A stretch of DNA of 64,000 bases from Deltaproteobacteria bacterium RBG_13_43_22 (GCA_001797675.1 MGQB01000018.1:30495-94494), one strand, 5' to 3'. Numbered from the stretch's first letter, positions 14 through 57,008 are shown. Notes: generated by a model from the letters alone, not told the origin. Numbers and translations: made by a program.

Positions 14-125
14 GATATTTGAAATTCTGGAATCCAGGAGACAGGAGCCAGAATTCAGAATGAGAAGGAATCGGTTACAAGATTTATGGTTTTATTCTGG
101 CTTCTGGATTCTGACTCCTGGATTC
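14..125. repeat. Heptamer-word hairpin repeat (arms about 30-61 / 94-125); 5' flank gatatttgaaattct shared with the element at 56774
   Basis: Right arm reads CTGGCTT CTGGATT CTGACTC CTGGATT. It is the imperfect reverse complement of the left arm (gaatccaggagacaggagccagaattcagaat). The 15-nt flank at 14-28 is identical to 56774-56788. Confidence 0.7.
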
Positions 126-188
126 TAAGTATTGCAGCAAAGATCGAATAATAAATTCTTGGATAATGGTTTGTTAGAAGCTAATCCT

Positions 189-869
189 TCAAGTCCTATA
201 TTTCCCCGGATCCCGAATCCCTGCTTCGGCAAATCCCTTGAGCCTTAAAAGACAAGCGTCGCACTTCCCGCAGGCCTCACCCTTGAACGACGGATCATAA
301 CAGGTACTGGTCAGGCTGAAATCAACGCCCAGTTCCAGCCCCTTTTTGATAATCTGGGCCTTATTTAAATGGATAAGGGGCGTATGGATTTTGATTTTTT
401 TCCCTTCAACACCGGCCCTGGTGCCCAGGTCGGCCGTTCTCTCGAAGGCCTCGATAAACTCCGGCCGGCAATCGGGGTAGCCGCTGTAATCCAGGGCATT
501 GACCCCAATAAAAATATCTCTTGCCCCCAGCACTTCCGCCCAGGCCAGGGCCAGGGAAAGAAAGATGGTATTGCGGGCCGGAACATAGGTAATCGGGATA
601 TCCCTGGGGATCTCTTCCAAATCACGATCCTTCGGCACCTCGATGTCTGCTGTTAAAGCCGAACCGCCGAAACGACTTAAATCCACATCAAAAATCCGGT
701 GTTCGGTCACCTGGAAGTGACCGGCAATCCGTCCGGCTGCCTCGATTTCCCATTGGTGCCGCTGGCCGTATCTAAAGGTCAAGGCATAAAGTTCATACCC
801 TTGTTTTTTGGCCACCGCCAGGGTGGTGGAGGAATCCAATCCCCCGCTTAAAAGGACGATTGCTTTCAT
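189..869 (-). CDS. queC: 7-cyano-7-deazaguanine synthase
   Basis: 226-aa ORF with N-terminal PP-loop LLSGGLDSS and a C-terminal Cys cluster (CGKCDAC), as in QueC. Confidence 0.9.
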
Positions 870-1129
870 ACCCTCTCCATAAAATAGGTTGGATTATGTT
901 ACCATAAAGGCCATACCCGGACAATAATAACATGGAGGTCATCCCCAAGGGAATCGCCGGAGCGGGAAGTATTCCAGGAGTTCAAGGCCAAGGGTTCGAG
1001 GGAAAAGGAAAAGGACAAAGAGATGAAACCTCTTATTTTCACTTGACTTGTTAACTTCCCTTCTTTATGCTTTCTCCATCGAAAAATAAATTCTTGTAAC
1101 TTCATGGGGTAACCGTATTATTTTGAAGA

Positions 1130-2116: not shown

Positions 2117-2191
2117 GGGAGGACATCCAATAGAGCCATTCTTTATCTTCTCTTCAACTCTTTCCAAAAAATACTATTTTCCATCAAATCC

Positions 2192-4885: not shown

Positions 4886-4948
4886 GTTTTCCTCCTAAGG
4901 GCGATAAAGAGGATAAATTTTTCAAGGAAAAATAAAGTTATCGTTTTG

Positions 4949-5359: not shown

Positions 5360-5420
5360 GTCCCACGCTTGCATGTGCCTTCGGCACCGCAAGCTCGTGC
5401 CACGGGTCAACGCCGCATTA
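5349..5420. repeat. attC/REP-like imperfect palindrome S0
   Basis: Arms cccgtcccacgcttgc / gcaagctcgtgccacggg with bulges and a loop containing GCCTTCGGC. The 22-nt 3' motif gccacgggtcaacgccgcatta is identical to 6262-6283. Confidence 0.6.
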
Positions 5421-5441
5421 GCTACATAAGGGATTGGTACT

Positions 5442-6131
5442 ATGCCTGAAGTTGCAATCCATTTTGCTGTGAAGAATAGTTTGGGTAACAGATCCAGCAT
5501 TTGGAAATGCTGGGCTAATATGGGAAACGGCAAGAATGACGTCTATGTCACGAATAGGGCTATAGGGAAGGCCGTAAAAACAAGCCTGCACGAATCCGGT
5601 TCATGGCATATCGCATTTGATTCGCGCTTCCTCAAAGAAGAAATCCAAGAAGAGAGTCGTTTACTATCAAATCGTTTCGTTGATAGATGGTCAAGGCCCG
5701 CTGAAATTGGTGCGGGGTGCACATTGGCTTTACGTATCATAATTCCCGAAGATACGATTACGATTCCCATGAGGAACACAGATCCCAATTCGACAGTCTG
5801 GATTTCAGCACCACCATCCGGTAAAGCAGTCGAGATTGTTTTGCTCTTGACGGCACCTCATTTCAAAACCTTGGGCTGGCCAGGGCGTGATACAATGGGG
5901 GCGCAGTTGCTTGAGAGTTTTCAGATTGAAAATGGCTATCGTTGCTGGATAGTTTACTATGTTATTGATAAACCTAAGATGGACCCCAGAAAGGGAGTAC
6001 CCACGTACTTCAAATCTGGAAAGCGAAACATTCAGAAAAGCCGAAAATACCGAGCCGTCATTTTTAGCGAATCGAAGGATGGCTCTCGTATTCTTTTTGA
6101 ATGCAATGTTCAAATACAAATGACCAGCTAA
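5442..6131 (+). CDS. Hypothetical protein (cassette-like ORF A)
   Basis: 229-aa ORF with no motif I recognise. It starts about 20 nt after palindrome S0. Confidence 0.5.
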   Translation: MPEVAIHFAVKNSLGNRSSIWKCWANMGNGKNDVYVTNRAIGKAVKTSLHESGSWHIAFDSRFLKEEIQEESRLLSNRFVDRWSRPAEIGAGCTLALRIIIPEDTITIPMRNTDPNSTVWISAPPSGKAVEIVLLLTAPHFKTLGWPGRDTMGAQLLESFQIENGYRCWIVYYVIDKPKMDPRKGVPTYFKSGKRNIQKSRKYRAVIFSESKDGSRILFECNVQIQMTS

Positions 6132-6148
6132 CCCGGCATTCAAGCGGA

Positions 6149-6186
6149 GCGCCAACAGCCGCGTCCGCTTAATTCTTTGTTGGCGC
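6149..6186. repeat. Short inverted repeat GCGCCAAC-N22-GTTGGCGC (S1a)
   Basis: Perfect 8-bp complementary boxes directly after the ORF A stop. A nested stem aagcgga/tccgctt lies inside. Confidence 0.5.
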
Positions 6187-6197
6187 CGCCGCAGGCG

Positions 6198-6283
6198 GCA
6201 CCAACAAAGCCATTGGACCCGATGTCCCTCGCTGCGTGGCCTTCGGCCCCCGCAGCAGCGGGCCACGGGTCAACGCCGCATTA
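6198..6283. repeat. attC/REP-like imperfect palindrome S1b (homologous to S0)
   Basis: Arms acccgatgtccctcgctgcg / cgcagcagcgggccacgggt, loop GCCTTCGGC, and the same 22-nt 3' motif as S0. Confidence 0.6.
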
Positions 6284-6297
6284 TGTGAAGGAGACCA

Positions 6298-6975
6298 ATG
6301 GACAAAGTACCTCAAATCGACAACGGAAAAAGACCGGAGGACTTTATCAATATTGTCAATCTACCCCACTTCCCAAGTAACACTCCATTTGGGAACCTCC
6401 TGCTTAAGGGCATGAACATAGTTCGTCGAATTGACAAGGTCAATTTGGAAATACGCCGTGTTTTTGGCTCCTATGTCCATCCGTCAAACCAAGACATAAA
6501 CAACCCGAACCCCCATCAGGACGTACTCGAACATCAATTCTATGCGGAACAGGTCGTTTATTGGTTGCGCAAAACGGCTGATGAAATCGTGGCCCTTGCG
6601 TATGTCATCAATCAGCACAGAAACACTGGGAGTTGGCCCGAATCGGTGCAAGTCGATTCTATCTCGGGTTTGAAAAACAGCCATTCGGAGGAACTCCGTC
6701 TCCTCTTTAAACCACACGAGGGGTTTCTCTCGACCCTCAACGAGATCGCGAATGCCTTCAAGCACTCGTTCATAAATACCGACATGACTTTGATTGGTTC
6801 TGAATACCCTGTTGTCTTCGCTCTCGGGTTGAAGTACAACAAACTGAGCAATCAGCCGAAGTTTTACACGGTCAGCTTCGCGGAGATGATCACTGCTTTC
6901 TCAGCATTCTACAAGCAATCCATGGCAGGGATTCAGGGGTGGGTCACATTCAGCAACGATAGCGACAAACCATGA
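6298..6975 (+). CDS. Hypothetical protein (cassette-like ORF B); weak HEPN-like N-x3-H motif
   Basis: 225-aa ORF with ANAFKH at residues 151-156. No other recognisable domain. Confidence 0.5.
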   Translation: MDKVPQIDNGKRPEDFINIVNLPHFPSNTPFGNLLLKGMNIVRRIDKVNLEIRRVFGSYVHPSNQDINNPNPHQDVLEHQFYAEQVVYWLRKTADEIVALAYVINQHRNTGSWPESVQVDSISGLKNSHSEELRLLFKPHEGFLSTLNEIANAFKHSFINTDMTLIGSEYPVVFALGLKYNKLSNQPKFYTVSFAEMITAFSAFYKQSMAGIQGWVTFSNDSDKP

Positions 6976-6982
6976 AAGGCGC

Positions 6983-7041
6983 ACATAACCCGTCGTTCCA
7001 CCGGATTGCTTACGCTCCCGGTGAACTCGGCGTTGGCTTGT
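6983..7041 (+). repeat. attC-like site S2 (59 bp)
   Basis: 5' ACATAAC, then imperfect arms ccgtcgttccaccgg / ccggtgaactcggcg with bulges, then 3' GTTGGCTTGT. The 3' box is the exact reverse complement of the 5' box of S3. Confidence 0.5.
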
Positions 7042-7089
7042 AGAAAATTACATCCTAAGATTTAGTTTGATAGGAGAAATGGGAGCAAT

Positions 7090-7647
7090 ATGAGATTGAT
7101 ACATTGGAGCTATTTCCTTGCCTTGGAAGAAGACTTTCTACGACTTGGCAGATTTGTAGAATTCAACAGTAAGAATTTCGCCACTTTCTCCCTTGAAATG
7201 GCACATCTGTTGCTGGCAGCTTCATCAGAAACCGATGTGGTACTCAAAATGCTGTGCAAGCTGTTCGCGCCTGATGCACAAAACGAAGCCAACTATCGTG
7301 CAACTATTCCGCAAAACATATCTGATTTTACGAAATTGAAGGTTGATATGCCAAGGTATGAACTGAGTTTCCAGCCATGGCAGCCTTGGGACAGTAATCA
7401 AACGCCTGATTGGTGGACAGCGTATAACAAAGTTAAGCATGAGCGTGATTCATACTATGAAAAGGCAAACCTTGGAAACGTCCTTCAGTCCATGGCGGCC
7501 CTTTTTGTGAGCAACCTTTACCTTTATAAGGACTTGGCTAATAAAGGCGAGTTGAGCCCTTGGCCGCAGCTCTTTTACCCTGAAGATCAGTATAGCACAG
7601 GAGTTACGCCCGGAGAAGGAGGCTGGGCGTTGGTTTGTAAGCTTTAA
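7090..7647 (+). CDS. Hypothetical protein (cassette-like ORF C); possible divergent HEPN-like protein
   Basis: 185-aa ORF. Helical N-terminus with an acidic patch (LALEEDFLRLGRFVEF) and WWTAYNKVKHER at residues 108-119. Confidence 0.5.
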   Translation: MRLIHWSYFLALEEDFLRLGRFVEFNSKNFATFSLEMAHLLLAASSETDVVLKMLCKLFAPDAQNEANYRATIPQNISDFTKLKVDMPRYELSFQPWQPWDSNQTPDWWTAYNKVKHERDSYYEKANLGNVLQSMAALFVSNLYLYKDLANKGELSPWPQLFYPEDQYSTGVTPGEGGWALVCKL

Positions 7648-7650
7648 CTC

Positions 7651-7720
7651 ACAAGCCAACAAGTAAATCCAGCGGACGGCTTACAGCCGCCGCTGATTTG
7701 AAGAAAGGGGGACGTTGGTG
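7651..7720 (+). repeat. attC-like site S3 (70 bp), abutting the left inverted repeat of the Y1 element
   Basis: 5' ACAAGCCAAC, arms aaatccagcggacggc / agccgccgctgattt with two extrahelical bases, loop GCTTAC as in S2, and 3' GTTGGTG. Confidence 0.5.
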
Positions 7721-8793
7721 CTGAATTGACTTGACAAGGGTTTATATGGGGTTTAAACAGTAAATTATGCCAAGACAAGCGAGACTTGATGCACCAGGGA
7801 CCTTGCACCATGTTATGGGGCGGGGAATTGAGGGTGCCAAGATATTCAGAAATAAGCCGGATCGGGAGGATTTCGTCAGGCGAGTGGCCGACCTCTGTCG
7901 GGGGGGTTATATTATAATCTATGCCTGGGCACTGATGCCTAATCATTTTCATCTTTTGATCAGGACCCACGAACATCCTCTTTCAACAGGCATGAGGAAA
8001 CTTCTAACGGGTTATGTGGTGAATTTTAACCGGCGTCATAAGCGATTCGGACATCTCTTTCAGAACAGGTTTAAATCGATTATCTGTGAAGAAGATCCCT
8101 ATTTGTTGGAGCTCACCAGATATATCCATCTCAACCCTTTGCGGAAGGGGTTGGTTGAAGGAATGGAGGAACTTAAGAATTATCCCTGGACCGGGCATTC
8201 AGCCATTCTGGGCGAAACGAAGCAGAACTGGCAGGATAACGATGCAGTACTTTCCTATTTCAGTTCCAGGAAAAAAAAGGCCATTTTGCTTTATGAGAAA
8301 TTTGTTACCGAAGGGATTACCCAGGGTAGGAAACCTGAGTTGGTGGGGGGTGGGTTAATTCGGAGCATGGGGGGATGGTCTGAGGTTCTTGCTTTAAGGA
8401 GAAAAGATAAAAGACTTGTTTCGGACGAGAGGGTTTTGGGAAGTGGCGAATTTATTCGGGGCCTGTTTTCAGAGGCGGAGCAGAGAGCGAAGGAAACGCT
8501 GAGATTCTCGGAGAAGGTAATTGATTTGGCTTCGTTGGCTCGGGAAATAGTTAAAGAAGTAGGGATAAAGGAGTCGGAGTTAAGGTCAGGCAGCCGACAA
8601 AAACAGGTTTCTAAAGTAAGAAGGCTGTTTTGTCAAGTAGCGGTTAAGAAGATGAGATATCCTGGGGCAGAAGTAGCCCGTTTTTTGGGTGTGACGACTT
8701 CAGCCGTCAATCGGTTAGCCAATTCAACCCAAGGGGAATAACAGGGATATGGTTTTATTATTAAATTGTTTCAGCACCAACGTCCCCTTTTTT
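7703..8793 (+). mobile_element. Y1/HUH transposase element bounded by 18-22 bp inverted repeats
   Basis: ggggACGTTGGTGCTGAA (7707-7725 region) is the perfect reverse complement of TTCAGCACCAACGTcccc (8770-8787 region). The pair encloses only the transposase-like gene. Confidence 0.7.
7767..8741 (+). CDS. IS200/RAYT-like Y1 (HUH) transposase with C-terminal DnaA-C-like helix-turn-helix
   Basis: 324 aa with HUH motif PNHFHLLI, catalytic-Tyr region LTRYIHLNPL, and C-terminal HTH GAEVARFLGVTTSAVNRL. Confidence 0.8.
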   Translation: MPRQARLDAPGTLHHVMGRGIEGAKIFRNKPDREDFVRRVADLCRGGYIIIYAWALMPNHFHLLIRTHEHPLSTGMRKLLTGYVVNFNRRHKRFGHLFQNRFKSIICEEDPYLLELTRYIHLNPLRKGLVEGMEELKNYPWTGHSAILGETKQNWQDNDAVLSYFSSRKKKAILLYEKFVTEGITQGRKPELVGGGLIRSMGGWSEVLALRRKDKRLVSDERVLGSGEFIRGLFSEAEQRAKETLRFSEKVIDLASLAREIVKEVGIKESELRSGSRQKQVSKVRRLFCQVAVKKMRYPGAEVARFLGVTTSAVNRLANSTQGE

Positions 8794-13935: not shown

Positions 13936-14001
13936 TTTTTATTTAATAAAAAAAGGTTCCTTTCCCAATAAGTTGGGAGAAAAGGCTCGAGGGTCTTGGG
14001 A

Positions 14002-16672: not shown

Positions 16673-16904
16673 GGTCATAGGGAGTCTTGTTTTTTTGGGT
16701 TGTCCCCCCATAAGCCATAAGCTTCTTTGCCGGGCCATCGTTTGAACCTAATTCGTTGGCAGGCCCCTGGGGGCCTCCAGGACCATTACTCGAAACAGGC
16801 TTGGGTGTATGCCCTGCCTCGAATCAAACTTTGCTGGACTGGCCGGGTTTGAAAATCATAATTACCCTTTGGACAATCCCCAAAAAACAAGACTCCCTAT
16901 GACC
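16673..16904. repeat. MITE-like element with roughly 32-bp terminal inverted repeats
   Basis: ggtcatagggagtcttgttttttt..gtcc (16673-16705) is the near-perfect reverse complement of ggacaatccccaaaaaacaagactccctatgacc (16871-16904). Confidence 0.7.
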
Positions 16905-16933
16905 CTCCCAATTTCAAATAGGTTTGGTTGATT

Positions 16934-19726: not shown

Positions 19727-19810
19727 TGTTAAGGTTCCTTATTAGATTCTTAAACTAATCAGGTTGAGAAGTTCTCTTTAATGTCGGGAAAAATCATATC
19801 GTTGTAAACC

Positions 19811-19910
19811 CCAAATTCAAAGTCCAAATGGGCCATGTTCAAAACGTTTGGGTTTTGAATTCTGGTTATTTAAATTTGTTTTGTGCTTCGAATTTCGGAT
19901 TTCAAATTGG
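19811..19910. repeat. Partial heptamer-word repeat (cgaaat/ccgaaa family)
   Basis: Contains caaaacgtttgggttttgaa..tttgttttgtgcttcgaatttcggattt, homologous to arms of the elements at 23944 and 49962. Confidence 0.55.
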
Positions 19911-19943
19911 CAATCTAAAATTCCAAATAACTTTGGTGGGGTT

Positions 19944-23900: not shown

Positions 23901-23943
23901 AATTAGGCTGAAGGTTAGCCAAAAATATTTGCATTTTTGGCTA

Positions 23944-24131
23944 AAATCCGAAATCCGAATTTCGAAATCCGAAACAAATTCAAATGATCAAATTTTAAAA
24001 TTCAAAACGTTTTTGTTTTGGTCATTAAGATTTTGGACCTTCGCGCTTGTTTCGGATTTGTTCCCTGTGGTCACTCCTATCCCGATTGTATCGGGACGGG
24101 TTCCCGGTTTCGTGCTTCGAACTTCGGATTT
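23944..24131. repeat. Heptamer-word hairpin repeat (cgaaat/ccgaaa family) with a nested insertion
   Basis: Left arm AAATCCG AAATCCG AATTTCG AAATCCG AAACAAA. The right arm is interrupted by about 45 nt carrying its own hairpin (tcccgattgtatcggga). Homologous to 49962-50138. Confidence 0.7.
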
Positions 24132-24218
24132 AAAGATTACACCGGTTCAAATGTCAGAAACAAGTTCTAAGATCGGGTAAGAAAAATTCTAAAAGCTGAA
24201 GGATGGTTAGGAGTTCCT

Positions 24219-26035: not shown

Positions 26036-26088
26036 GTTGAAGGCTCAAAGCTCAAAGTAATAGGTTGGTAGGCTTTCCGCCTTGAGCG
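26036..26088. repeat. Heptamer-word repeat (gctcaaa family)
   Basis: AAGGCTC AAAGCTC AAAGTAA ... ccgccttgagcg, filling the beta/gamma intergenic spacer. Confidence 0.5.
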
Positions 26089-27766: not shown

Positions 27767-27887
27767 TCCTTGCACCAAGGTGCTGTCCCGCCGGAAGCGG
27801 GATTCCAGGCAAGGTTAATAATCCCCTCTCTAATCCCGCCAACGGCGGGACAATCACATCGGTGGCCTGACGGGGATGCGCTCGCTG
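27767..27887. repeat. Structured repeat core shared with 56821-56932
   Basis: ccttgcaccaaggtgctgtcccgccggaagcgggattccaggcaagg ... ggggatgcgctcgct. It has nested stems ccttgc/gcaagg and tcccgc/gcggga. Confidence 0.6.
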
Positions 27888-28222: not shown

Positions 28223-28232
28223 AATGATACAA

Positions 28233-28336
28233 GGCTGCAGGATGCAAGATGCCGGAGGGACGAGGGATGATTTTTCTAACATCGTCCAAGCGAAGCGGTC
28301 GTCCCTCGTCCTTCGTCCATTTTGCATCCTGCAGCC
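28233..28336. repeat. Heptamer-word hairpin repeat (gagggac/gatgcaa family)
   Basis: GGCTGCA GGATGCA AGATGCC GGAGGGA CGAGGGA TGATTTT pairs with gtcgtccctcgtccttcgtccattttgcatcctgcagcc. Degenerate words continue to about 28430. Confidence 0.7.
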
Positions 28337-28439
28337 TGCATCAGGTATCCGGCATCGGGAATCGTCCCCCATCCTTTCATCCCGTATTCTGAAATCCGAA
28401 ATCCGCAATCGAAAACCGTCCTGCATCTGCCATCAGCCG

Positions 28440-30502: not shown

Positions 30503-30570
30503 CTTTTGCGAGTTTAAGGTTACCTGTTTCGGGTTAAAAAATTATTAACCCCGCAACTCGTAACCCGTAA
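30503..30570. repeat. Heptamer-word repeat (gttacgg/ccgtaac family)
   Basis: ttaaccccgcaactcgtaacccgtaac with partial complement upstream. Related to 53921-54001. Confidence 0.5.
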
Positions 30571-30577
30571 CTTTATT

Positions 30578-31650: not shown

Positions 31651-31989
31651 ATGAGACTTATATTAATCAAGTGGTTCATCAATGCCCTGGCCATTTATGT
31701 TACTTCCTATCTGGTCAAGGGAATCGAGTTCACCGGAGCCGCGGCCCTGATTATGGCCGCCGCTTTGCTGGGTATACTGAACGCCCTTATTCGTCCCATC
31801 CTGATCATCCTGACTTTGCCGATCAATATCCTTACCTTAGGGCTTTTTACCCTGATCATCAACGGCGGCATGCTCTGGTTCGTCTCCCTCTTAATAAAAG
31901 GGTTTATCATTCAAGGTTTTTGGCCGGCGGTAATCGGGGCCTTGATGATCAGTATTGTCAGTTGGATAATCAATTGGGTGATACGCTAA
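31651..31989 (+). CDS. DUF360 / phage-holin-4-family membrane protein (YvlD-like)
   Basis: 112 aa with four hydrophobic helices. Preferred over the overlapping non-hydrophobic frame 31671-32036. Confidence 0.7.
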   Translation: MRLILIKWFINALAIYVTSYLVKGIEFTGAAALIMAAALLGILNALIRPILIILTLPINILTLGLFTLIINGGMLWFVSLLIKGFIIQGFWPAVIGALMISIVSWIINWVIR

Positions 31990-32002: not shown

Positions 32003-32115
32003 ACCGGATATCGGATGCCGGATTGAATGCAAATGAGGGACGAAAGACGATGGACGATTTTTCATCCCTCGTCTTAGCGATGCGATTGTCCCTCGTCCAT
32101 CAGGCATCTAACATC
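32003..32115. repeat. Heptamer-word hairpin repeat (gagggac family)
   Basis: GGATATC GGATGCC GGATTGA ATGCAAA TGAGGGA CGAAAGA CGATGGA CGATTTT followed by the complementary catccctcgtc...gtccctcgtccatc. Confidence 0.65.
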
Positions 32116-33216: not shown

Positions 33217-33296
33217 AACTGAAAGTTCAAAGCTCAAGGCATAAAGTAACTGCAACTACCCTATTGAAGAAAGGTTTTTCCTTTGAGCTTTTAGCT
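33217..33296. repeat. Heptamer-word hairpin repeat (gctcaaa family)
   Basis: AGTTCAA AGCTCAA GGCATAA ... cctttgagcttttagc, occupying the pilT/pilU spacer. Confidence 0.55.
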
Positions 33297-35258: not shown

Positions 35259-35267
35259 ATTATTGCC

Positions 35268-35364
35268 GGTTGCGGTTTTTAGATTTCGGAATACAAAAAG
35301 ACACGGGATGAAAGACGAAGGATGATTTTTTTTACCCCGCATTCCGAAATTCGCAATCCGAAAT
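35268..35364. repeat. Heptamer-word hairpin repeat (mosaic of the cgaaat and gatgaaag words)
   Basis: atttcggaat / attccgaaat arms. The core gggatgaaagacgaaggatg matches the reverse complement of the tail of the 28233 element. Confidence 0.6.
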
Positions 35365-35366
35365 GG

Positions 35367-36050
35367 TCAACCCCACCGGGTTTTATAACCGCAAACCTGA
35401 TCGGCCTCGATCATAAGCGTATTTAAGCGTCTCTCAACCTCCAGCCGCAAAGCCTCCATCTCCATTTCGGTGGACTCTTTAGGCACATTCAGGGGAGAGC
35501 CATAAGAGATAACCACTTCGCTGAAGGGCCAGGGGATCATGGTCTTGTCCCAGGTCTTTTCAAGCGTTACCGCCCGTCGGGCTGACCAGATGAAGGGAAG
35601 CAAAGGGACACCGGTTTTTTGGGACAACACCAGGAGACCCTTCTTGGCCTTATAACGAGGTCCTTGGGGTCCATCTAACACGGTGGAACAAGCCCGGTTC
35701 CCTTCTTTTAAATATCTGATCATTTGGATCAAGGCTTTTTCCCCTCCCCGTTTGGAAGAACCCCTTACCGGAATAACGCCGCATTTCTGGGCAAACCGGG
35801 CCAGATATTCACCATCCCGACTTTGACTGAACATAATCATGGGGTGAAACGGACCATAATAATAGCAGGAAAAAATGGAGGTCCGATGCCAGGTAACACC
35901 GATAACTTGGCGGGATCCTAAGAAGAACTCCTTATAAAGTTCCTCATGCAACATCCTTATACGACAGGTCCTGAACCAGGCTTTGAATAAAAGGTGAGCA
36001 AAGCTAATCAGGGCGCCCGTACCCCATTGCAGTGGCAAGGTCAGACCCAT
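35367..36050 (-). CDS. DUF374-family lysophospholipid acyltransferase-like protein
   Basis: 227 aa with SQSRDGE and GPQGPRY motifs typical of DUF374/LPLAT-like proteins. Confidence 0.65.
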   Translation of the reverse strand: MGLTLPLQWGTGALISFAHLLFKAWFRTCRIRMLHEELYKEFFLGSRQVIGVTWHRTSIFSCYYYGPFHPMIMFSQSRDGEYLARFAQKCGVIPVRGSSKRGGEKALIQMIRYLKEGNRACSTVLDGPQGPRYKAKKGLLVLSQKTGVPLLPFIWSARRAVTLEKTWDKTMIPWPFSEVVISYGSPLNVPKESTEMEMEALRLEVERRLNTLMIEADQVCGYKTRWG

Positions 36051-38360: not shown

Positions 38361-38431
38361 CTGACAGCTCAAAGCTGAAAGGAAAAACAATTTCTTTGGG
38401 CCTTGAGCTTTCTTCTTTGAGTTTTCAGCTA
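38361..38431. repeat. Heptamer-word hairpin repeat (gctcaaa/gctgaaa family)
   Basis: ctgacagctcaaagctgaaagg ... TTGGGCC TTGAGCT TTCTTCT TTGAGTT TTCAGCT. Confidence 0.6.
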
Positions 38432-39836: not shown

Positions 39837-39937
39837 GGACTTTTTTTAACGCAAACACCCTTTCTTGTCAATGTCTTATCTTACCTTGCCCCCCTTCACT
39901 TTGCCATAACTATTTCAATTAACCCCACTTTCAAAAT

Positions 39938-40149
39938 CGGGAGTGAAGGAGCTTTGGGGGGGTTGCCAACCTAAACCCTGTAAACATCGTTCCCCGGCTG
40001 AATATTGAAACGTCTTTTGAAAGCAGGCCGAAAAAAAATCCAATAAAAGCAGGGGTGAGTAGCTTGTTTTATTGGAACGGAAGCATTAGGGTCGGAATGA
40101 TGCAGGAGTTCCCCTTTTGGACAACCCCCCAAAACCCCCCTCACTCCCG
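39938..40149. repeat. Roughly 190-210-nt conserved element, copy 1 (homologous to 57432-57625), flanked by 28-bp inverted repeats
   Basis: Shared blocks gaaagcaggccgaNaaaaaaatccaa and cattaggg..g.atgatgcaggag.tc.ccttttggacaacc. Flanking inverted repeat cgggagtgaaggagctttgggggggttg / caaccccccaaaacccccctcactcccg. Confidence 0.65.
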
Positions 40150-40207
40150 AGAAATCTGGTCTTTCAACTGGCCGGGTTGTCAAAAGAGAATGGGGGGCAA
40201 GCCTATC

Positions 40208-45846: not shown

Positions 45847-45872
45847 AAACCTTGAACGTCAAACTTTTTTCT

Positions 45873-47063: not shown

Positions 47064-47091
47064 ATTCACATCCTCCTCAAAAAAAACTGTT

Positions 47092-47282
47092 TTCACCGCC
47101 GAGACGCTGAGACCGCAAAGAAGTTAATTTATCGATAGCCGATGAGAGGTCGGCAATCGATAACCTTCGCTACCCTCCGGGTAATTAGTTGGCCGGAGGC
47201 CAGAGCTGTTTTATTCAATCCCGCCTCTCACGGGATTGAACAATAATGATTCTCTCTGCGTTCTTTGCGTCTTTGCGGTGAA
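47092..47282. repeat. Roughly 190-bp inverted-repeat-flanked (MITE-like) element, copy 1 (homologous to 58678-58865)
   Basis: Arms ttcaccgccgagacgctgagaccgcaaagaag / ctctctgcgttctttgcgtctttgcggtgaa. Internal ttggccggaggccagag and hairpin caatcccgcctctcacgggattg are shared with copy 2. Confidence 0.7.
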
Positions 47283-48029
47283 CAAAAATTTTTTCAAATG
47301 AATAAAAAATTCCCGGTTTCCCTTGGCCCCTTGAATCGGGGATTCAATGGTTCCCAAGACCGAAAAACCAATTTCATTACAAAAATGGATCAAATTTTCA
47401 ACCACGGTCTTCCGGTCCTCATCATTTCGCACCACCCCCCCCTTTCCCACTTTCCCCTTCCCAACTTCAAATTGGGGTTTAATCAGGGCCACGATTTCCC
47501 CCTGGTCCTTCAGGATGGGGACCAAAGGGGGAATAATCAATTTCAACGAAATAAATGAGGTGTCTATCACGATGAAATCCGCCGGTTCTCCAATGTCGGT
47601 CGGGGTCAGAAATCGGGCATTCTTTCTTTCCATGACCTTTACCCGGGGATCCTGACGGATCTCCCAGGCCAATTGGCCATAGCCCACATCGATGGCATAA
47701 ACCCGTTTGATCCCTCTTAAAAGCAGACAGTGACTGAATCCCCCGGTGGAGGCCCCGATGTCCAAGGCGATCCGGTCTTTGACTTCGATCCGAAAACTCT
47801 CCAAGGCCTTTTCTAGTTTGACTCCCCCGCGGCTTACATAAGGGTGTTCCGCTTGCCTTACCTCAACCGGGAGATTGGAATCCACCGTCTTACCCGGTTT
47901 GGCGATAGGAATCTGGTTGACTCGCACCATCCCGGAATAAATCAAAGCCCGGGCCTTCTCCTGAGAAGAGGCCAAACCCTTTTCCAGTAATAGCCGATCC
48001 AATCGAATCTTAGGATTTTTCGCAACCAT
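47211..48029 (-). CDS. tlyA: TlyA-family rRNA (cytidine-2'-O)-methyltransferase
   Basis: S4 domain followed by the FtsJ-like SAM motif DIGASTGGF. The last roughly 25 codons (..FTAKTQRTQRESLLFNPVRGGIE) are encoded by the repeat at 47092-47282. Confidence 0.85.
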   Translation of the reverse strand: MVAKNPKIRLDRLLLEKGLASSQEKARALIYSGMVRVNQIPIAKPGKTVDSNLPVEVRQAEHPYVSRGGVKLEKALESFRIEVKDRIALDIGASTGGFSHCLLLRGIKRVYAIDVGYGQLAWEIRQDPRVKVMERKNARFLTPTDIGEPADFIVIDTSFISLKLIIPPLVPILKDQGEIVALIKPQFEVGKGKVGKGGVVRNDEDRKTVVENLIHFCNEIGFSVLGTIESPIQGAKGNREFFIHLKKFLFTAKTQRTQRESLLFNPVRGGIE

Positions 48030-49938: not shown

Positions 49939-49961
49939 ATTTGATCTATCACAATTGAATC

Positions 49962-50138
49962 AAATTCGAATTTCGAAGCACGAAACTCGAAACAAATCTA
50001 AAATTCAAAAACCACATTGTCTAATTATCCCCGATCGTTCACACAACTCCCTTAGCAAGGAGAGAGAAAAGGTGGGGGTGGTTTTGGATTTTGATCATTT
50101 GAATTTGTTTCGAATTTGGAGTTTCGGATTTCGGATTT
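49962..50138. repeat. Heptamer-word hairpin repeat (cgaaat/ccgaaa family) with a roughly 65-nt unique core
   Basis: Left arm AAATTCG AATTTCG AAGCACG AAACTCG AAACAAA TCTAAAA TTCAAAA. The right arm is its imperfect complement, ending gtttcggatttcggattt. Confidence 0.75.
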
Positions 50139-50182
50139 AACTTGACCTCTCATTTTTTTCATTTTGGTTCGTTTGGAAAAAT

Positions 50183-51079: not shown

Positions 51080-51080
51080 C

Positions 51081-52668: not shown

Positions 52669-52963
52669 ATGGTTATCATTTTAAAGGAAAATTGTTTTTT
52701 TAGCAAGGATTTTTGATATTCCAAGTTTCCTATTATACTTTAACTGAACCGGTCAGAAGTCGAAAATCATTTTTCCGGGTCATTTCGGGAAAGCCGGAAT
52801 CCAGCATTTTTAAGTAATCAATAATCTTCCGGGGCAAGCTTGGTGACGATTATTTACGAGTTCATTAAGAATTAATGAGTCATCGAAAGTAACTTGATTT
52901 TCACTCCCTTCCTATGAGAAAATCCCGAATCTGAAATATAACTTTTTTTATAGTGAGGTTTCC

Positions 52964-53860: not shown

Positions 53861-53920
53861 GATAAAAGATCAAATTCTTACATGGTTAAGTCTGAGAATT
53901 TATCTTTGACTTTAATTTTT

Positions 53921-54001
53921 GTTACGGGTTACGGGTTGCGGGTTTAGAAATCGAAATCCTTTCTCTAAAAAACTCGCAACTCGTAACCCGCAACTTGCAA
54001 C
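53921..54001. repeat. Heptamer-word hairpin repeat (gttacgg/ccgtaac family)
   Basis: GTTACGG GTTACGG GTTGCGG GTT ... AACTCG CAACTCG TAACCCG CAACTTG CAAC. Confidence 0.7.
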
Positions 54002-54048
54002 AGAATAAGTTCAAATATCTTTGGTCAGCTTTAAGGAGCGGAAGAACC

Positions 54049-54516
54049 ATGAAAATCAATGTCAATGGTCGGGATTACAAGATCGCCGCCAAGCCGTGGC
54101 GCACCTTATTGGAGGTGCTTCGTTATGAACTGGGATTCACCGGAACCAAAGAAGGCTGCGGCACCGGAAGCTGCGGTTCCTGCACGGTTCTCATGGACGG
54201 CAAGGCGGTCAACGCCTGCCTGGTCTTTATTGCCGAGGCCAAGGGGAAAGCCATCACCACGATTGAAGGATTATCCCGGGAAGGAAAACTCCATCCGCTG
54301 CAGCAGGCCTTCATCGATGAAGGTGCGGTGCAATGCGGTTTTTGCACTCCGGGAGTGATTCTTACGGCCAAAGCCTTTCTGGATTCCAATCCGCAGCCTT
54401 CCGAATCTCAAATAAGAGAAGCCATTGCCGGTAATCTCTGCCGTTGCACCGGCTATGATAAGATCGTACGGGCCATCATGAACGCTGCTCAGGCAGCAGA
54501 TAAAGGGAGAGTCTAA
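54049..54516 (+). CDS. Molybdenum hydroxylase [2Fe-2S] (small, CoxS-like) subunit
   Basis: 155 aa from the ATG preceded by AAGGAG, with CGTGSCGSCT and CGFCTPG...CRCTGY. Confidence 0.85.
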   Translation: MKINVNGRDYKIAAKPWRTLLEVLRYELGFTGTKEGCGTGSCGSCTVLMDGKAVNACLVFIAEAKGKAITTIEGLSREGKLHPLQQAFIDEGAVQCGFCTPGVILTAKAFLDSNPQPSESQIREAIAGNLCRCTGYDKIVRAIMNAAQAADKGRV

Positions 54517-56762
54517 TGTCGAAATATTCCGTGGTCGGTCGGCGTTTACCCAGAGTGGACGCTCTCAGCAAGGTGACCGGGGAGGCCGTTTTCAGCGGCG
54601 ATATTGCCTTGCCCCATCTGCTTCACGGCAAGGTGCTCAGAAGCCCCTATTCCCATGCCGTAATCCGTCGTTTGGATGTAAGGAAAGCGCAGGGCCTGGA
54701 TGGGGTCATGGCCATTATTACCGCCTCGGACGTACCTGGATATAAAAAAAGGAGTGAACTAACCTTCTCCGAACTACCGCACCTGGCCAAGGATAAGGTG
54801 GTCTATGCGGAACAACCTGTGGCGGCAGTGGCGGCTTTAAGCAAGGAGATCGCCGAAAAGGCCCTGGACCTCATCCGGGTGGATTATGAAGCCTTGCCCC
54901 CGGTCCTCGACCCGTTGGAGGCCATGGAGCCGACTTCGCCGTTAATCCATCAGGATCTATATACCAATATCATACCCAATCCCGAACCCGGCAAAAAGGA
55001 CCGGCCCAGTAATATTGCCTATCACGTGAAAATCAATAAAGGGGATTTGGAAGCCGGATTCAAGGAAGCCGATATGATCCTGGAAAACACCTATCGTACC
55101 CAAAAGGTTCACCATGGATTTATTGAGCCCTTTGCCGCCGTGGCAGCCGCAGATGCTAACGGGAAGGTGACGGTCTGGACCCAGAGCCAGGGCCTGTTCA
55201 TAGCCCGGCAGATGATTGCCCAATTCCTGGACTTACCCCGAAACCGGGTTAAAGTGATTCCCGTGGAAATAGGCGGCGCCTTCGGGGGTAAAACTTATCA
55301 GCCCCTGGCCCCCCTTTGTGCCCTGCTGGCCATGAAATCCGGACGCCCGGTCCGGATGGAGATGACCCGGGACGAAGTGCTGAAAGACAGCCGCCCGGCC
55401 CCCGAATCCATCATTACCGTCAAGATGGGCGTTACCGATCAGGGCACCATTACGGCCGCTTCAGCCGAATTAATCTATGATGCTGGGGCCTTTCCGGAAA
55501 TGTCCCACGGTATGTTCACCAGCAGCAATGTATTTTGTCAGTATAAAATTCCCAATTTAAGTCTTGACACCAAAGACGTGCTCACCAATAAGGTGCCCTC
55601 GGCTTACTACCGCGCCCCGGGGATTCCCCAGGCCCACTTTGCCATCGAATCCCATCTGGATATTATCGCCCGGAGACTAAAAATGGACCCATTGGAACTA
55701 CGTATTCAAAATGCGGCCGTAAAGGGGGATACGCTGCCTAACGGGGAAATATTACCCCGGGTGGGATTTAAGGAAAGCCTCGAGAAGATGGCGGAGTATT
55801 TGAAACAGAAAGGAAATTTAACCGGCAGGAACCGGGGCCGGGGCATTGCCTGCGGGTTCTGGCACGGTGCCGTGGGAAGCTTCGGGGCTTACATCCAGGT
55901 CAACAACAACGGCTCGGTAAACCTGATCCTTGGCATTACCGACATTTCCGGCAGCCGCACCAGTATCGCTCAAATCGTCGCCGAAGAGCTCGGACTTCCA
56001 TTAAACAAAGTAACGGTGGTCATCGGTGATACGGAGACCGCTCCCTGGGCGACCATGTCGGTAGGCAGTCTGACCGTCTATTCATTGAGTACTGCGGTTT
56101 ACCGCGCCTGTCAGGATGTTAAGGCCCAGATGGGCTCTCTGGCCGCAAAAAAACTTGGGGCGGACCCTTCCGAGATCGAATTTTCCAAGGGGCTTTTTCA
56201 GGTAAAAGGAAATACCGAAAAATCCATCTCCTTTACGGAAATAGCCAGATCAACGGCGATGACTTTCGGCAAAGGACCCGTCTTAGGACGAGGCGCCTTG
56301 GACGGGCTTCCCCCTGCCCCTACCCTATCCGTTCACGCAGCGGACGTGGAAGTTGACGATGAAACCGGGAAGGTCAGGATCAAAGCCTATGCCGTGGCCC
56401 AGGATGTGGGCTTGGCGATCAATCCCCTTTCCGTTGAAGGCCAGATCCAGGGCGCCGTCACCCAGGGTATCGGCTGGGCCTTGATGGAGAACTATATTTT
56501 TGAAAAGGGCGTGATGCAGAATACCACCCTTCTCGATTATCGAATGCCTACCGCCACCGATGTTCCCATGATCGAGGTCTTGATCGTTGAGGTCGGCTCT
56601 TCCAGGGGGGTTTACGGTTTAAGACACGTGGGTGAGCCGCCCATGATACCCGTCCTGGCGGCGGTGGCCAACGCCGTTCACAGCGCCACGGGAGTAAGAT
56701 TCAAGGAGTTGCCCTTGACTCCGGAGGTTGTATTAAAGGGCATAAAACAAAGGGACAAATAA
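54516..56762 (+). CDS. Molybdenum hydroxylase molybdopterin-binding (large, CoxL/XdhA-like) subunit
   Basis: 748 aa; the ATG overlaps the small-subunit stop. Has aldehyde oxidase/xanthine dehydrogenase a/b-hammerhead and Mo-binding regions (AYYRAPG, GEPP near the C-terminus). Confidence 0.85.
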   Translation: MSKYSVVGRRLPRVDALSKVTGEAVFSGDIALPHLLHGKVLRSPYSHAVIRRLDVRKAQGLDGVMAIITASDVPGYKKRSELTFSELPHLAKDKVVYAEQPVAAVAALSKEIAEKALDLIRVDYEALPPVLDPLEAMEPTSPLIHQDLYTNIIPNPEPGKKDRPSNIAYHVKINKGDLEAGFKEADMILENTYRTQKVHHGFIEPFAAVAAADANGKVTVWTQSQGLFIARQMIAQFLDLPRNRVKVIPVEIGGAFGGKTYQPLAPLCALLAMKSGRPVRMEMTRDEVLKDSRPAPESIITVKMGVTDQGTITAASAELIYDAGAFPEMSHGMFTSSNVFCQYKIPNLSLDTKDVLTNKVPSAYYRAPGIPQAHFAIESHLDIIARRLKMDPLELRIQNAAVKGDTLPNGEILPRVGFKESLEKMAEYLKQKGNLTGRNRGRGIACGFWHGAVGSFGAYIQVNNNGSVNLILGITDISGSRTSIAQIVAEELGLPLNKVTVVIGDTETAPWATMSVGSLTVYSLSTAVYRACQDVKAQMGSLAAKKLGADPSEIEFSKGLFQVKGNTEKSISFTEIARSTAMTFGKGPVLGRGALDGLPPAPTLSVHAADVEVDDETGKVRIKAYAVAQDVGLAINPLSVEGQIQGAVTQGIGWALMENYIFEKGVMQNTTLLDYRMPTATDVPMIEVLIVEVGSSRGVYGLRHVGEPPMIPVLAAVANAVHSATGVRFKELPLTPEVVLKGIKQRDK

Positions 56763-56773
56763 TCCTAACCAGG

Positions 56774-57008
56774 GATATTTGAAATTCTTGAATTCAGAAT
56801 CCAGGAGTCAGAATTGAAGCTCCCTGCAACAAGGTGCAGTCCCGCAGGGCGGGATTCCAGGCAAGGAAAGGGTTTATTTGTTGTAGTTCGCTCGCTAACC
56901 CACGCAGCAAGCTGCGGGGAATGCGCTCGCTATTCCTGTTCAAAATGAGAGCGAATCGTTGCTGAGGTTTGATATTTTTTTCTGAATTCTGATTTCCGGC
57001 TCCTGAAT
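56774..57008. repeat. Heptamer-word hairpin repeat carrying a nested structured core (56821-56932)
   Basis: Flank gatatttgaaattct is identical to 14-28. Arms gaattcagaatccaggagtcagaat / TTCTGAA TTCTGAT TTCCGGC TCCTGAA. The core is homologous to 27767-27887. Confidence 0.7.

What the first reader, a model, noticed from the sequence alone, without database searches (positions are those of the whole stretch)
14..57008. Pervasive intergenic hairpin repeats whose arms are built from degenerate 7-nt tandem words
At least 13 intergenic spacers contain long imperfect inverted repeats whose arms parse cleanly into heptamers. Examples are AAATCCG AAATCCG AATTTCG AAATCCG AAACAAA (23944), GGCTGCA GGATGCA AGATGCC GGAGGGA CGAGGGA (28233), GGATATC GGATGCC GGATTGA ATGCAAA TGAGGGA CGAAAGA CGATGGA (32003), GTTACGG GTTACGG GTTGCGG (53921), CTGGCTT CTGGATT CTGACTC CTGGATT (94-125) and TTGGGCC TTGAGCT TTCTTCT TTGAGTT TTCAGCT (38394). 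Several word families exist: cgaaat/ccgaaa, gagggac/gatgcaa, gctcaaa, gttacgg and ccagaat. The families are mosaic: the 35268 core equals the reverse complement of the 28233 tail. The elements carry variable or nested cores. Heptameric tandem repeats (STRR) are known from heterocystous cyanobacteria. I am not aware of a described family of heptamer-periodic hairpin elements in this kind of genome. Possible roles are REP/BIME-like mRNA-stability or attenuation hairpins, protein-binding arrays, or substrates of the Y1 (RAYT-like) transposase at 7767.
Basis: seen in the sequence. Interest (0 to 1): 0.65.

Follow-up and report, generated by a model that had tools for sequence, protein, structure and literature searches.

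The report
Gene-less relatives of four-helix-bundle gene cassettes
The heptamer-built hairpins between genes are real, and the best-studied ones are stripped-down copies of a small, widespread mobile cassette that normally carries a 'four-helix-bundle' gene (the kind first seen inside 23S rRNA intervening sequences), which may explain why 7-base repeats are so common between bacterial genes.

Summary
Intergenic DNA of this Desulfobacterota-like window has a strong 7-nt periodicity (z = 9.6 against shuffles; none in coding DNA). About 16 spacers carry long imperfect inverted repeats with 7-nt arms (8-nt in two).

They are not local slippage products and are not tied to the Y1 transposase-like gene at 7767. 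They are dispersed families shared with very distant genomes (37-66% GC; Planctomycetota, cyanobacteria).

For the AAATCCG family, full-length copies elsewhere carry a PF05635 gene between the same arms. PF05635 is the 23S rRNA intervening-sequence, or "four helix bundle", Avd-like protein. The window's copies keep only the gene's start codon region and the sequence after its stop. The CAGAATC/CAGGAGT family matches both ends of a Nostoc punctiforme cassette.

Of 17 PF05635 loci from at least five phyla, 13 have strongly 7- or 8-nt periodic flanks, against 2.6% of control genes. A 623-nt cassette with a 9-bp duplication is present or absent among the window's own strains, and one hairpin is swapped whole.

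The published precedent is the Coxiella 23S rRNA IVS: S23p ORF, tandem heptamers, RNase III cleavage. RNase III processing of these 3'-UTR stems is inferred, not shown. The reason for a 7-nt period stays open.

The parts
9..28 (-). Edge motif AGAATTTCAAATATCTTTTG (reads CCAAAAGATATTTGAAATTCT on the + strand), next to the family B hairpin. Role unexplained.
   Evidence: Seven sites with at most 3-4 mismatches against 0.3 expected, all at the outer edges of hairpins.
30..125 (+). Family B hairpin (CAGAATC/CAGGAGT words; arms 30-61 and 94-125). The loop keeps ATGAGA...CAAGATTTATGG, a remnant of a four-helix-bundle gene start.
   Evidence: Inverted repeat I4, 84% complementary; fold of -62.6 kcal/mol; aligns to both ends of the Nostoc punctiforme pNPUN02 PF05635 cassette, 31 of 39 at the 3' end.
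13936..14001 (-). Solo 3'-end remnant of a 123-aa-type cassette: GACCCTCGAGCC, the hairpin TTTCTCCCAACTTATTGGGAAAGGAAC, then a T-run.
   Evidence: Read. The same hairpin closes the cassettes in L237 and L087.
19806..19914 (-). Family A (AAATCCG) gene-less element, truncated on its 3' side.
   Evidence: nhmmer hit at 19847-19914, E = 2.2e-8, to the family profile; sequence.
23938..24144 (+). Family A gene-less element. The 5' arm is AAATCCG x4 followed by AAACAAATTCAAATGATCAAA (cassette 5'UTR and start codon). The CGGATTT arms lie at 24025-24059 and 24100-24131.
   Evidence: nhmmer E = 7e-17; inverted repeats I6, I8 and I12; 88% identical over 99 nt to the unrelated contig L103.
26036..26090 (+). 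Family D hairpin (GCTCAAA words), directly after the stop codon at 26029.
   Evidence: Tandem Repeats Finder row 26043-26057; lag-7 match 0.47 for the spacer; fold.
28232..28337 (.). Family E hairpin (GGATGCA / GAGGGAC / GACGAAG words), 39-nt arms.
   Evidence: Inverted repeat I1, 85% complementary; -112 kcal/mol for the region.
28391..28418 (.). Family A arm fragment (GAAATCC GAAATCC GCAATCG AAAAC), next to the family E hairpin.
30510..30574 (-). Family C hairpin (GTTACGG/GTTGCGG words), directly after the stop codon at 30578.
   Evidence: 22 nt, 95% identical to 53921-53942; fold.
32003..32100 (+). Family E hairpin between the stop at 31989 and the pilT start at 32129.
   Evidence: -49 kcal/mol.
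33224..33296 (+). Family D hairpin between two pilT-like genes.
   Evidence: Inverted repeat I21; 33274-33296 is similar to the reverse complement of 38366-38388.
35263..35370 (.). Composite element: outer family A-type arms (CGGAAT/ATTCCGAAAT) around a core of family E-type words.
   Evidence: Inverted repeat I13.
38362..38428 (-). Family D hairpin after the stop codon at 38429.
   Evidence: Lag-7 match 0.49 for the spacer.
47080..47294 (.). Period-8 hairpin (CGCAGAGA / CTTTGCG words) with a structured core shared with 58678-58865.
   Evidence: Inverted repeat I2.
49956..50150 (-). Family A gene-less element with a 95-nt core.
   Evidence: nhmmer E = 7e-14 and 7.5e-7 for the two arms; 49 nt, 92% identical to 23944-23992.
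52939..52947 (+). Empty target TAACTTTTT. In strains L085 and L087 a 623-nt PF05635 (pseudo)gene cassette sits here, flanked by a duplication of these 9 bp.
53921..53994 (+). Family C hairpin in the coxM-coxS spacer. In strain L087 it is replaced whole by a different heptamer element, within the swapped stretch 53906-54006.
   Evidence: Inverted repeat I11, 88% complementary; allele swap and contig breaks at 53905.
56792..57008 (+). Family B hairpin whose 169-nt core contains another repeat (56825-56866, similar to 27771-27814).
   Evidence: Inverted repeat I16.
58678..58865 (.). Second period-8 hairpin, with the edge motif at 58628-58647.
   Evidence: Inverted repeat I9.

Best explanation
The hairpins are members, almost all gene-less, of a widespread class of small palindromic cassettes. 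The complete form carries a PF05635 gene in the loop. PF05635 is the 23S rRNA intervening-sequence protein, also called 'four helix bundle protein', and is Avd-like. In the complete form, arrays of degenerate 7-nt words (sometimes 8-nt) in inverted orientation bracket the gene. The stem pairs the gene's ribosome-binding and start region with the sequence just after its stop.

Internal loss of the gene leaves a 100-200 nt hairpin, much as a MITE derives from a transposon. Such hairpins far outnumber full copies. The cassettes land downstream of host stop codons, are exchanged or replaced between near-identical strains, and nest inside one another.

Shown here: the periodicity, the family structure, the derivation of families A and B from gene-bearing cassettes, the general association of PF05635 genes with 7/8-nt periodic flanks, and the insertion and replacement polymorphisms.

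Inferred by analogy with 23S rRNA IVSs: once transcribed as part of a host 3' UTR or intercistronic spacer, the long imperfect stem is a substrate for RNase III. Cleavage would separate the flanking cistrons and reset mRNA ends, and in full copies it would free the buried start codon.

Not explained: how the cassettes move, and why the period is 7.
For: 1. Lag-7 periodicity occurs only in intergenic DNA, z = 9.6.

2. The families are dispersed within the window: 49 nt at 92% identity between 23944 and 50138, 42 nt at 86% between 14 and 56774, and 22 nt at 95% between 30550 and 53921.

Of the 82 matches read on the first 80 loci, about 70 have the AAATYCG/AAGCACG heptamers on one side and GACCAAAAT.CAAAAC on the other. 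The host contigs span 37-64% GC, and one is a Planctomycetota MAG.

4. That conserved core is the 5'UTR, the ATG and the first codons of a PF05635 gene in the full-length copies L133, L164, L215 and L223; L184 carries the same arms and 5'UTR.

5. Other PF05635 subfamilies have other word families: L203, L100, L087, L237 and L247.

6. In annotated plasmids of cultured bacteria the same holds for Nostoc punctiforme, Nostoc PCC 7120, Pseudanabaena, Calothrix, Azospirillum, Riemerella and Picosynechococcus.

7. With one uniform test, 10 of 17 PF05635 loci reach at least 16 of 21 matches at lag 7 and 3 more reach at least 17 of 21 at lag 8. Among 935 control genes, 21 do so at lag 7 and 3 at lag 8.

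8. The window's family B element aligns to both ends of the N. punctiforme cassette, including ATGAGA...CAAGATTT and the bases beyond the 3' arm.

9. A 623-nt cassette with a 9-bp duplication is present or absent among strains that are 99.8-100% identical. The hairpin at 53906-54006 is replaced whole in one such strain, and two contigs end exactly at the junction.

10. The same coxM-coxS spacer holds a periodic hairpin with different words in relatives at 74-84% protein identity.

11. The Coxiella IVS combines an S23p ORF, terminal inverted repeats, tandem GACAGAT heptamers of variable number, and RNase III cleavage at the first repeat (PMC4990558).
Against: No PF05635 gene or clear gene remnant lies in the window itself, apart from the short family B remnant.

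Families C (GTTACGG), D, E and F are linked to cassettes only by shared architecture or by similar words. No gene-bearing copy was found for family C.

The arms of one copy pair no better with each other than with arms of other copies (-30.0 against -31.1 kcal/mol). So there is no copy-specific covariation to prove selection for the stem.

Among metagenome copies of family A, orientation relative to neighbouring genes is only weakly biased: 42 against 25 on the 5' side, and 31 against 30 on the 3' side (with crude ORF calls).

Four of the 17 PF05635 loci fall below the strict periodicity threshold.

RNase III cleavage, transcription of the elements and any mobility mechanism are untested. The cassettes encode no recognisable transposase.
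Confidence: 0.62

Rival explanations
1. The arrays are ordinary simple-sequence repeats. Polymerase slippage, with an intrinsic preference for 7-nt units, makes them locally in each spacer. The inverted pairing arises locally too, for example by template switching.
For: Heptamer repeats are over-represented in many bacteria, and a polymerase-footprint explanation has been proposed (Mrazek 2007, as cited in PMC4692102). In 1.23 Mb from 80 other species, period 7 also exceeds the other periods that are not multiples of 3: 43 segments against 4-9. Heptamer copy number varies among Coxiella strains.
Against: The same words, together with flanking non-repetitive sequence, recur at unlinked loci and in genomes of 37-66% GC. 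Local slippage cannot produce that. Strains at 99.9% identity show no unit-number differences in any arm across 20 kb holding six elements. The arrays are degenerate rather than perfect. Slippage may still lengthen or shorten arms once an element is in place.
Confidence: 0.12
2. They are REP/BIME-like elements mobilised by the Y1 (RAYT-like) transposase-like protein encoded at 7767-8741.
For: The protein has a Y1_Tnp domain and resembles REP-associated tyrosine transposases (E = 3e-16). The hairpins are intergenic imperfect palindromes in several families. One contig, L218, has an IS200-like gene next to a cassette.
Against: The Y1 gene's own flanking inverted repeat (AAAGGGGGACGTTGGTGCTGAA) is unrelated to any heptamer word and is single-copy in the window. 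Its flanks have no lag-7 signal. Its score is below the family cut-off (59.6 against 80). The hairpin families occur in phyla-wide contexts that correlate with PF05635 genes, not with Y1 genes. Action in trans cannot be excluded.
Confidence: 0.05
3. They are host-evolved 3'-end or intercistronic RNA structures (terminators, stabilisers, or arrays for an RNA-binding protein such as a cold-shock protein or CsrA). They are kept because they regulate the adjacent genes, and PF05635 genes merely tend to insert into them.
For: All 16 elements follow a stop codon, and none lies in a divergent spacer. The coxM-coxS spacer keeps a periodic hairpin across relatives at 74-84% protein identity. Many words contain GGA. 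CspB binds heptamers (PMC4679880).
Against: No U-tracts follow the stems. Terminator-like sites are not enriched (27 against 28.4 expected), and none coincides with a full hairpin. Gene-less family A and B copies carry the start codon and first codons of the cassette gene, which points to derivation from the cassette rather than the reverse. There is no Rfam match even at E = 0.5. The two views are not exclusive, since host benefit could follow insertion.
Confidence: 0.15

Closest known systems
[quoted passage not shown]
   Same: A stem formed by terminal inverted repeats, with a PF05635 ORF in the loop. Tandem heptamers (GACAGAT x2-3) lie just upstream of the ORF start, and their number varies. 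The element is AT-richer than its host and is regarded as a selfish element of unknown mobility. RNase III cuts in the stem at the first repeat (PMC4990558).
   Different: The window's elements lie in mRNA 3' UTRs and intercistronic spacers, not in helix 25 or 45 of 23S rRNA. They have lost the ORF. They come in several word families and in many copies per genome. RNase III cleavage has not been shown for them.
Xanthomonas GGGAATC heptamer repeats, including 70-75 convergent (inverted) pairs per genome (Rehm et al. 2015, PMC4692102)
   Same: Intergenic arrays of a degenerate heptamer, typically about 4 units, often as two arrays in inverted orientation that can form stem-loops. They are transcribed and are variable between species.
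   Different: A single G-rich word, studied as a G-quadruplex former, with no link drawn to PF05635 genes. Here there are several non-G-rich word families plus conserved non-repetitive cores.
Cyanobacterial STRR heptanucleotide repeats, and TAACTGA repeats of Beggiatoaceae, cyanobacteria and Bacteroidetes (MacGregor 2015, PMC4679880)
   Same: Tandem heptamers confined to intergenic DNA, in several word families per genome, with a patchy cross-phylum distribution that suggests horizontal spread. The CAGGAGT/CAGAAGT words flanking the N. punctiforme PF05635 gene match the window's family B.
   Different: They are described as direct repeats, often just upstream of start codons. Hairpin architecture and association with a gene cassette were not reported.
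REP/REPIN elements with RAYT transposases, and MITEs
   Same: Short, abundant intergenic palindromes, non-autonomous and derived from or dependent on a gene-bearing element. They nest and form mosaics, and they can act as mRNA 3'-end structures.
   Different: There is no associated tyrosine or DDE transposase. The arms are periodic word arrays rather than one conserved palindrome. A 9-bp duplication was seen only for the one gene-bearing insertion.

Membership tests
IVS-type PF05635 (S23p / four-helix-bundle) cassette | Terminal inverted repeats that form a long stem around the element | tested here: met
   Arms of 22-42 nt at 70-88% complementarity in all listed elements.
IVS-type PF05635 (S23p / four-helix-bundle) cassette | A PF05635 ORF in the loop | tested here: not met
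   No PF05635 ORF in the window. The window copies are gene-less. Full-length relatives with the same arms do carry it (L133, L184, L215, L223). Strains L085 and L087 of the same species carry a PF05635 pseudogene cassette at 52939-52947.
IVS-type PF05635 (S23p / four-helix-bundle) cassette | Tandem heptamers next to the ORF start, inside the stem (as in Coxiella) | tested here: met
   precedent.
IVS-type PF05635 (S23p / four-helix-bundle) cassette | Excision or cleavage by RNase III | not testable with these tools
   Needs RNA-end mapping or an in vitro assay.
IVS-type PF05635 (S23p / four-helix-bundle) cassette | Location in helix 25 or 45 of 23S rRNA | tested here: not met
   No rRNA or tRNA genes in the window. 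The elements lie after protein-gene stop codons.
MITE-like derivative of a gene-bearing element | Keeps both ends of the full element and lacks the internal gene | tested here: met
   Family A: the 5'UTR, ATG and first codons, plus the post-stop region, are retained. Family B: both ends align to the N. punctiforme cassette. Not shown for families C to F.
MITE-like derivative of a gene-bearing element | Target-site duplication and a transposase acting in trans | tested here: inconclusive
   A 9-bp duplication was seen for one gene-bearing insertion. No duplication was defined for the gene-less copies. No transposase was identified.
REP/BIME with RAYT | The RAYT gene is flanked by copies of the genome's REP sequence | tested here: not met
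   The Y1 gene is flanked by a unique 18-nt inverted repeat unrelated to the hairpins. It scores below the RAYT model cut-off.
Heptanucleotide SSR / STRR | Tandem 7-nt units confined to intergenic DNA | tested here: met
Heptanucleotide SSR / STRR | Unit-number polymorphism between close strains (slippage) | tested here: not met
   No unit-number change in 20 kb (L090) or 13 kb (L084) of strains at 99.9% identity or more. The only differences are whole-element replacement or insertion.
Intrinsic terminator | A G+C-rich stem followed directly by a U-tract | tested here: not met
   No T-runs after the 3' arms. The scan finds no enrichment and no hit on a full hairpin.

The most novel reading that the evidence does not exclude
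Much of the long-noted excess of heptanucleotide repeats in bacterial intergenic DNA (cyanobacterial STRR, Xanthomonas GGGAATC, Beggiatoa TAACTGA and the arrays seen here) is the footprint of one super-family of PF05635 (Avd-like four-helix-bundle) cassettes and their gene-less derivatives. Each protein subfamily would travel with its own word family. The 4-5 heptamers per arm could be the binding array for the pentameric protein, which would tie the repeat period to the element's propagation or to its RNase III-dependent expression.
Probability: 0.35. Interest if true: 0.85.

Novelty: new variant of a known kind. Interest (0 to 1): 0.68.

Why it matters
Heptamer repeats have been catalogued in bacteria since 1990 (STRR) and were shown to be over-represented in 2007, without an accepted origin or function. 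PF05635 'four helix bundle' genes are among the most common uncharacterised small genes in cyanobacteria, Bacteroidota, Planctomycetota and Desulfobacterota. They are known mainly from rRNA intervening sequences and as the Avd partner of diversity-generating retroelements.

If the two puzzles are one, three things follow. There is a testable model for what the repeats are. Thousands of 'orphan' intergenic hairpins get an annotation. And an abundant class of parasitic elements is identified that sits in host 3' UTRs, where it could reshape mRNA processing and operon stoichiometry.

There is also a practical point. These elements break metagenome assemblies: contigs L085 and L086 end exactly at one. 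They also spawn spurious ORF calls.

Tried and rejected
1. Identifying the source genome with a PilT-based scan of species genomes. PilT is too conserved: the best hit was 75% identical and the window's own genome was not retrieved. The 80 loci were reused as a control set.

2. Rfam at gathering thresholds and at E up to 0.5: nothing.

3. Copy-specific covariation between the two arms of family A, using duplex energies of own against foreign partners: no signal, permutation p about 0.88.

4. Orientation bias of family A relative to neighbouring genes in metagenome contigs: weak, and limited by crude ORF calls.

5. Intrinsic-terminator reading: rejected.

6. Searching papers for the repeat sequences themselves: only chance primer matches.

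7. Viral-contig scan for family C (GTTACGG): no hits. No gene-bearing partner was found for that family.

8. Retrieving Mrazek et al. 2007: not held, so it is cited only through PMC4692102.

9. The edge motif CCAAAGATATTTGAAATTCT: checked by eye against the IHF and sigma-54 consensus sequences recalled from memory, with no convincing match. It remains unexplained.

Full report
**The window.** It is about 47% G+C and encodes PilT-type ATPases, pyruvate:ferredoxin oxidoreductase, molybdenum hydroxylases, DXP synthase and similar proteins. The closest PilT and CoxM relatives are uncultured Desulfobacterales and Thermodesulfobacteriota. Nearly identical contigs, 99.6-100% (99.8-100% apart from L088), exist in several metagenomes (L081-L090).

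**Checking the observation.** With long ORFs masked, 12.8 kb of intergenic DNA matches itself at lag 7 in 29.6% of positions, against 25.8% in 200 dinucleotide-preserving shuffles (z = 9.6). There are echoes at lags 14 and 21. Coding DNA shows only the codon period. Eight segments reach at least 16 of 21 matches at lag 7, and all are intergenic. Periods 4, 5, 8, 10, 11 and 12 give none. Two further elements, 47080-47294 and 58678-58865, have the same build but an 8-nt period. All 16 elements lie downstream of a stop codon, and none lies in the five divergent spacers. None has a U-tract, and a terminator scan finds no enrichment. Rfam has nothing for them, even at E = 0.5.

**They are dispersed families, not local products.** Inside the window, 49 nt of the element at 23944 are 92% identical to the reverse complement of the one at 50138. 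14-55 matches 56774-56815 at 86%. 30550-30571 matches 53921-53942 at 95%. The shared stretch of the first pair includes a non-repetitive part, GAAACAAATTCAAATGATCAAA. Among the 82 matches read on the first 80 loci, about 70 carry AAATYCG / AAGCACG / AAATCCG heptamers on the 5' side and GACCAAAAT.CAAAAT.CAAAAC on the 3' side. Most have a complementary CGGATTT-type arm 60-130 nt downstream, for a total span usually of 125-180 nt. The host contigs range from 37% to 64% G+C. The 64% G+C contig carries a protein whose 90%-identity cluster includes a Planctomycetota MAG protein on a contig of the same length. A profile of the family finds three copies in the window: 19847-19914, 23938-24144 and 49956-50150. 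Hairpins of the CAGAATC/CAGGAGT family also occur on contigs of 46% and 66% G+C. Heptamer-armed hairpins with other words occur in Nitrospinota, Verrucomicrobiota and other Desulfobacterota loci.

**What the conserved core is.** In some copies the two arms are 370-700 nt apart. In L133 the interval is an ORF whose ATG is the ATG of the conserved AAATTCAAATGACCAAAA. That ORF and its relatives in L184, L164, L215 and L223 are PF05635 / TIGR02436 proteins: the 23S rRNA intervening-sequence protein, or 'four helix bundle protein', related to the Avd protein of diversity-generating retroelements. The common 130-180 nt hairpin is therefore a full cassette that has lost its gene. It keeps the 5' arm, the 5'UTR, the start codon and about 8 codons, and then the post-stop region and the 3' arm. 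The retained 5' and 3' parts are complementary, so in a full copy the stem buries the start region. Only 2 of the 82 pattern matches (L133 and L164) begin such a gene, so gene-less copies vastly outnumber full ones.

**Generality.** Every other PF05635 gene in the roughly 2.3 Mb gathered is also bracketed by short-period arrays, with different words:
- L203: GTGTCGA GGGTCGA / CCCTCGA CACCCGA.
- L100: TTTTGGA x4 / AATCCAA x4.
- The 123-aa subfamily (L237, L247, L087): GGATTCAA GGGGTCAA / CCCTTGAA, which has period 8 and overlaps the last codons.

A tblastn of plasmids found 34 records, mostly Nostocales. All eight regions I read show the pattern in at least one flank:
- N. punctiforme: CAGGAGT CAGGAGT CAGAAGT ... 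ATGAGA / TTCTGAC TCCTGGC.
- Pseudanabaena: long AAAGCTA arrays on both sides.
- Nostoc PCC 7120: CTTCTGC/CCTCTGC.
- Calothrix: AAAAGCT words, at and just after the gene's 3' end only.
- Azospirillum: CAGAGGA CGGATGA / CCGTCCT CTGTCTT.
- Riemerella: GGTTTAA GGTTCAA / CCTTGAA.
- Picosynechococcus: period 8.

With one uniform criterion, 13 of 17 PF05635 loci are strongly periodic at lag 7 or 8 in a flank. Among 935 control genes, 24 flank hits (21 at lag 7, 3 at lag 8) meet the same criterion. The window's family B element aligns to both ends of the N. punctiforme cassette, including the remnant ATGAGA...CAAGATTT (M R .. Q D L) and the bases beyond the 3' arm, 31 of 39. Families A and B are therefore tied to gene-bearing cassettes by sequence. 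Families D and E are tied only by similar words, and family F only by its architecture and 8-nt period. For family C I found no gene-bearing copy.

**Mobility and turnover.** Against the window, contigs L085 and L087 carry a 623-nt insertion at 52939-52947. It is flanked by a duplication of TAACTTTTT and encodes a PF05635 gene with an in-frame stop, that is, a decaying cassette. In L087 the whole hairpin at 53906-54006 is replaced by an unrelated 112-nt element with ATCCAGC words, while the flanks are 99.8% identical. Contigs L085 and L086 end exactly at that junction, as expected if both alleles coexist in those samples. The same coxM-coxS spacer in relatives at 74-84% protein identity also holds a periodic hairpin with yet other words, and in two relatives an IS630-like insertion as well. 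In contrast, no heptamer-number differences occur between the near-identical strains, which argues against ongoing slippage as the main process. Cores of some hairpins contain other repeats: 56825-56866 is similar to 27771-27814, L215 has an insertion inside its 3' arm, and L164 has a hairpin inside the gene's 5' end. That is nesting.

**Comparison with what is known.** The literature held here describes several related things:
- Heptamer repeat excess and STRR (PMC4692102, PMC4679880).
- Paired inverted GGGAATC arrays in Xanthomonas.
- The Coxiella burnetii 23S rRNA IVS, a stem-loop with terminal inverted repeats and an S23p (PF05635) ORF. Two or three tandem GACAGAT heptamers precede the start codon, and RNase III cleaves at the first repeat (PMC4990558).

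I found no paper that connects PF05635 genes with heptamer repeats in general, or that describes gene-less derivatives in mRNA spacers. The library is incomplete, so this is absence of evidence only.

**The Y1 hypothesis.** The protein at 7767-8741 is RAYT-like but scores below the family cut-off. Its gene is bracketed by its own perfect 18-nt inverted repeat, 7708-7725 / 8770-8787, which is unrelated to the hairpins. Its flanks lack any period-7 signal. Nothing links it to the hairpins.

**Mechanism and status of each step.**
- Shown: periodic inverted arms; family structure across phyla; derivation of families A and B from PF05635 cassettes; the association of PF05635 genes with 7/8-nt arrays; insertion with a 9-bp duplication; allele replacement.
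- Inferred from the IVS precedent: the transcribed stems are RNase III substrates. They would cut host transcripts after the stop codon or between cistrons, and in full copies would expose the buried start codon.
- Unknown: the enzyme that moves the cassettes, and the reason for the 7-nt period. The typical 4-5 units per arm and the pentameric structure reported for the Xanthomonas S23p protein (as cited in PMC4990558) invite a binding-array model, but that is speculation. Own arms pair no better than foreign arms, so there is no covariation evidence for selection on individual stems.

**Verdict.** It is wrong on the Y1 link. The most useful result is the tie to four-helix-bundle gene cassettes, which makes the origin of bacterial heptamer repeats directly testable.

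Noticed in passing
window 52939-52947; L087 210-841; L085 9344-9975: A 623-nt cassette encoding a PF05635 protein with an in-frame stop is inserted, with a 9-bp duplication (TAACTTTTT), upstream of coxM in two metagenome strains. It is absent from the window.
   Followed up: yes
window 5399-8790: The Y1 (RAYT-like) gene at 7767-8741 has its own perfect 18-nt inverted repeat (7708-7725 / 8770-8787). It follows three same-strand genes with no Pfam or NCBIfam hit (5442-6131, 6298-6975, 7090-7647), each followed by a G+C-rich hairpin. A 22-nt perfect direct repeat (5399-5420 = 6262-6283) precedes two of them. This may be a separate mobile or defence island.
   Followed up: partly
window 9-28, 16908-16927, 19917-19936, 23919-23938, 54005-54024, 56769-56788, 58628-58647: The motif CCAAAGATATTTGAAATTCT (7 sites against 0.3 expected) lies at the outer edge of hairpins of different families. 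In 6 of 7 cases it sits between a stop codon and the hairpin. It could be an older outer palindrome, an insertion target or a processing signal.
   Followed up: partly
window 39937-40150 and 57457-57600: A non-heptamer repeat family: a hairpin with G-runs (TCGGGAGTGAAGGAGCTTTGGGGGGG...), in two copies at 88-94% identity over about 110 nt.
   Followed up: no
window 16673-16699 / 16878-16904: A 27-nt inverted repeat, 96% complementary, with 178 nt between the arms, in the spacer after the gene ending at 16934. It is not heptamer-periodic.
   Followed up: no
window 47122-47252 and 58707-58836: The two period-8 hairpins share a structured core (GGCCGGAGGCCAGAG plus a perfect small hairpin AATCCCGCCTCTCACGGGATT) with no Rfam match.
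   Followed up: partly
L260 (Pseudanabaena plasmid) and L263 (Picosynechococcus plasmid): Four-helix-bundle genes sit inside CRISPR-Cas operons: between cas6 and cas4, and between cas10/cmr2 and cmr3. Each has its periodic flanks.
   Followed up: no
L092 and L093, 10897-12300: Relatives at 74% CoxM identity carry an IS630-like (DDE_3) insertion in the same coxM-coxS spacer that holds the swapped hairpin. That spacer appears to be an insertion hotspot.
   Followed up: no
L117 1253-1684 (- strand): One family A element carries a different cargo between its arms, a 143-aa ORF that looks HEPN-like by eye. It was not checked against Pfam.
   Followed up: no
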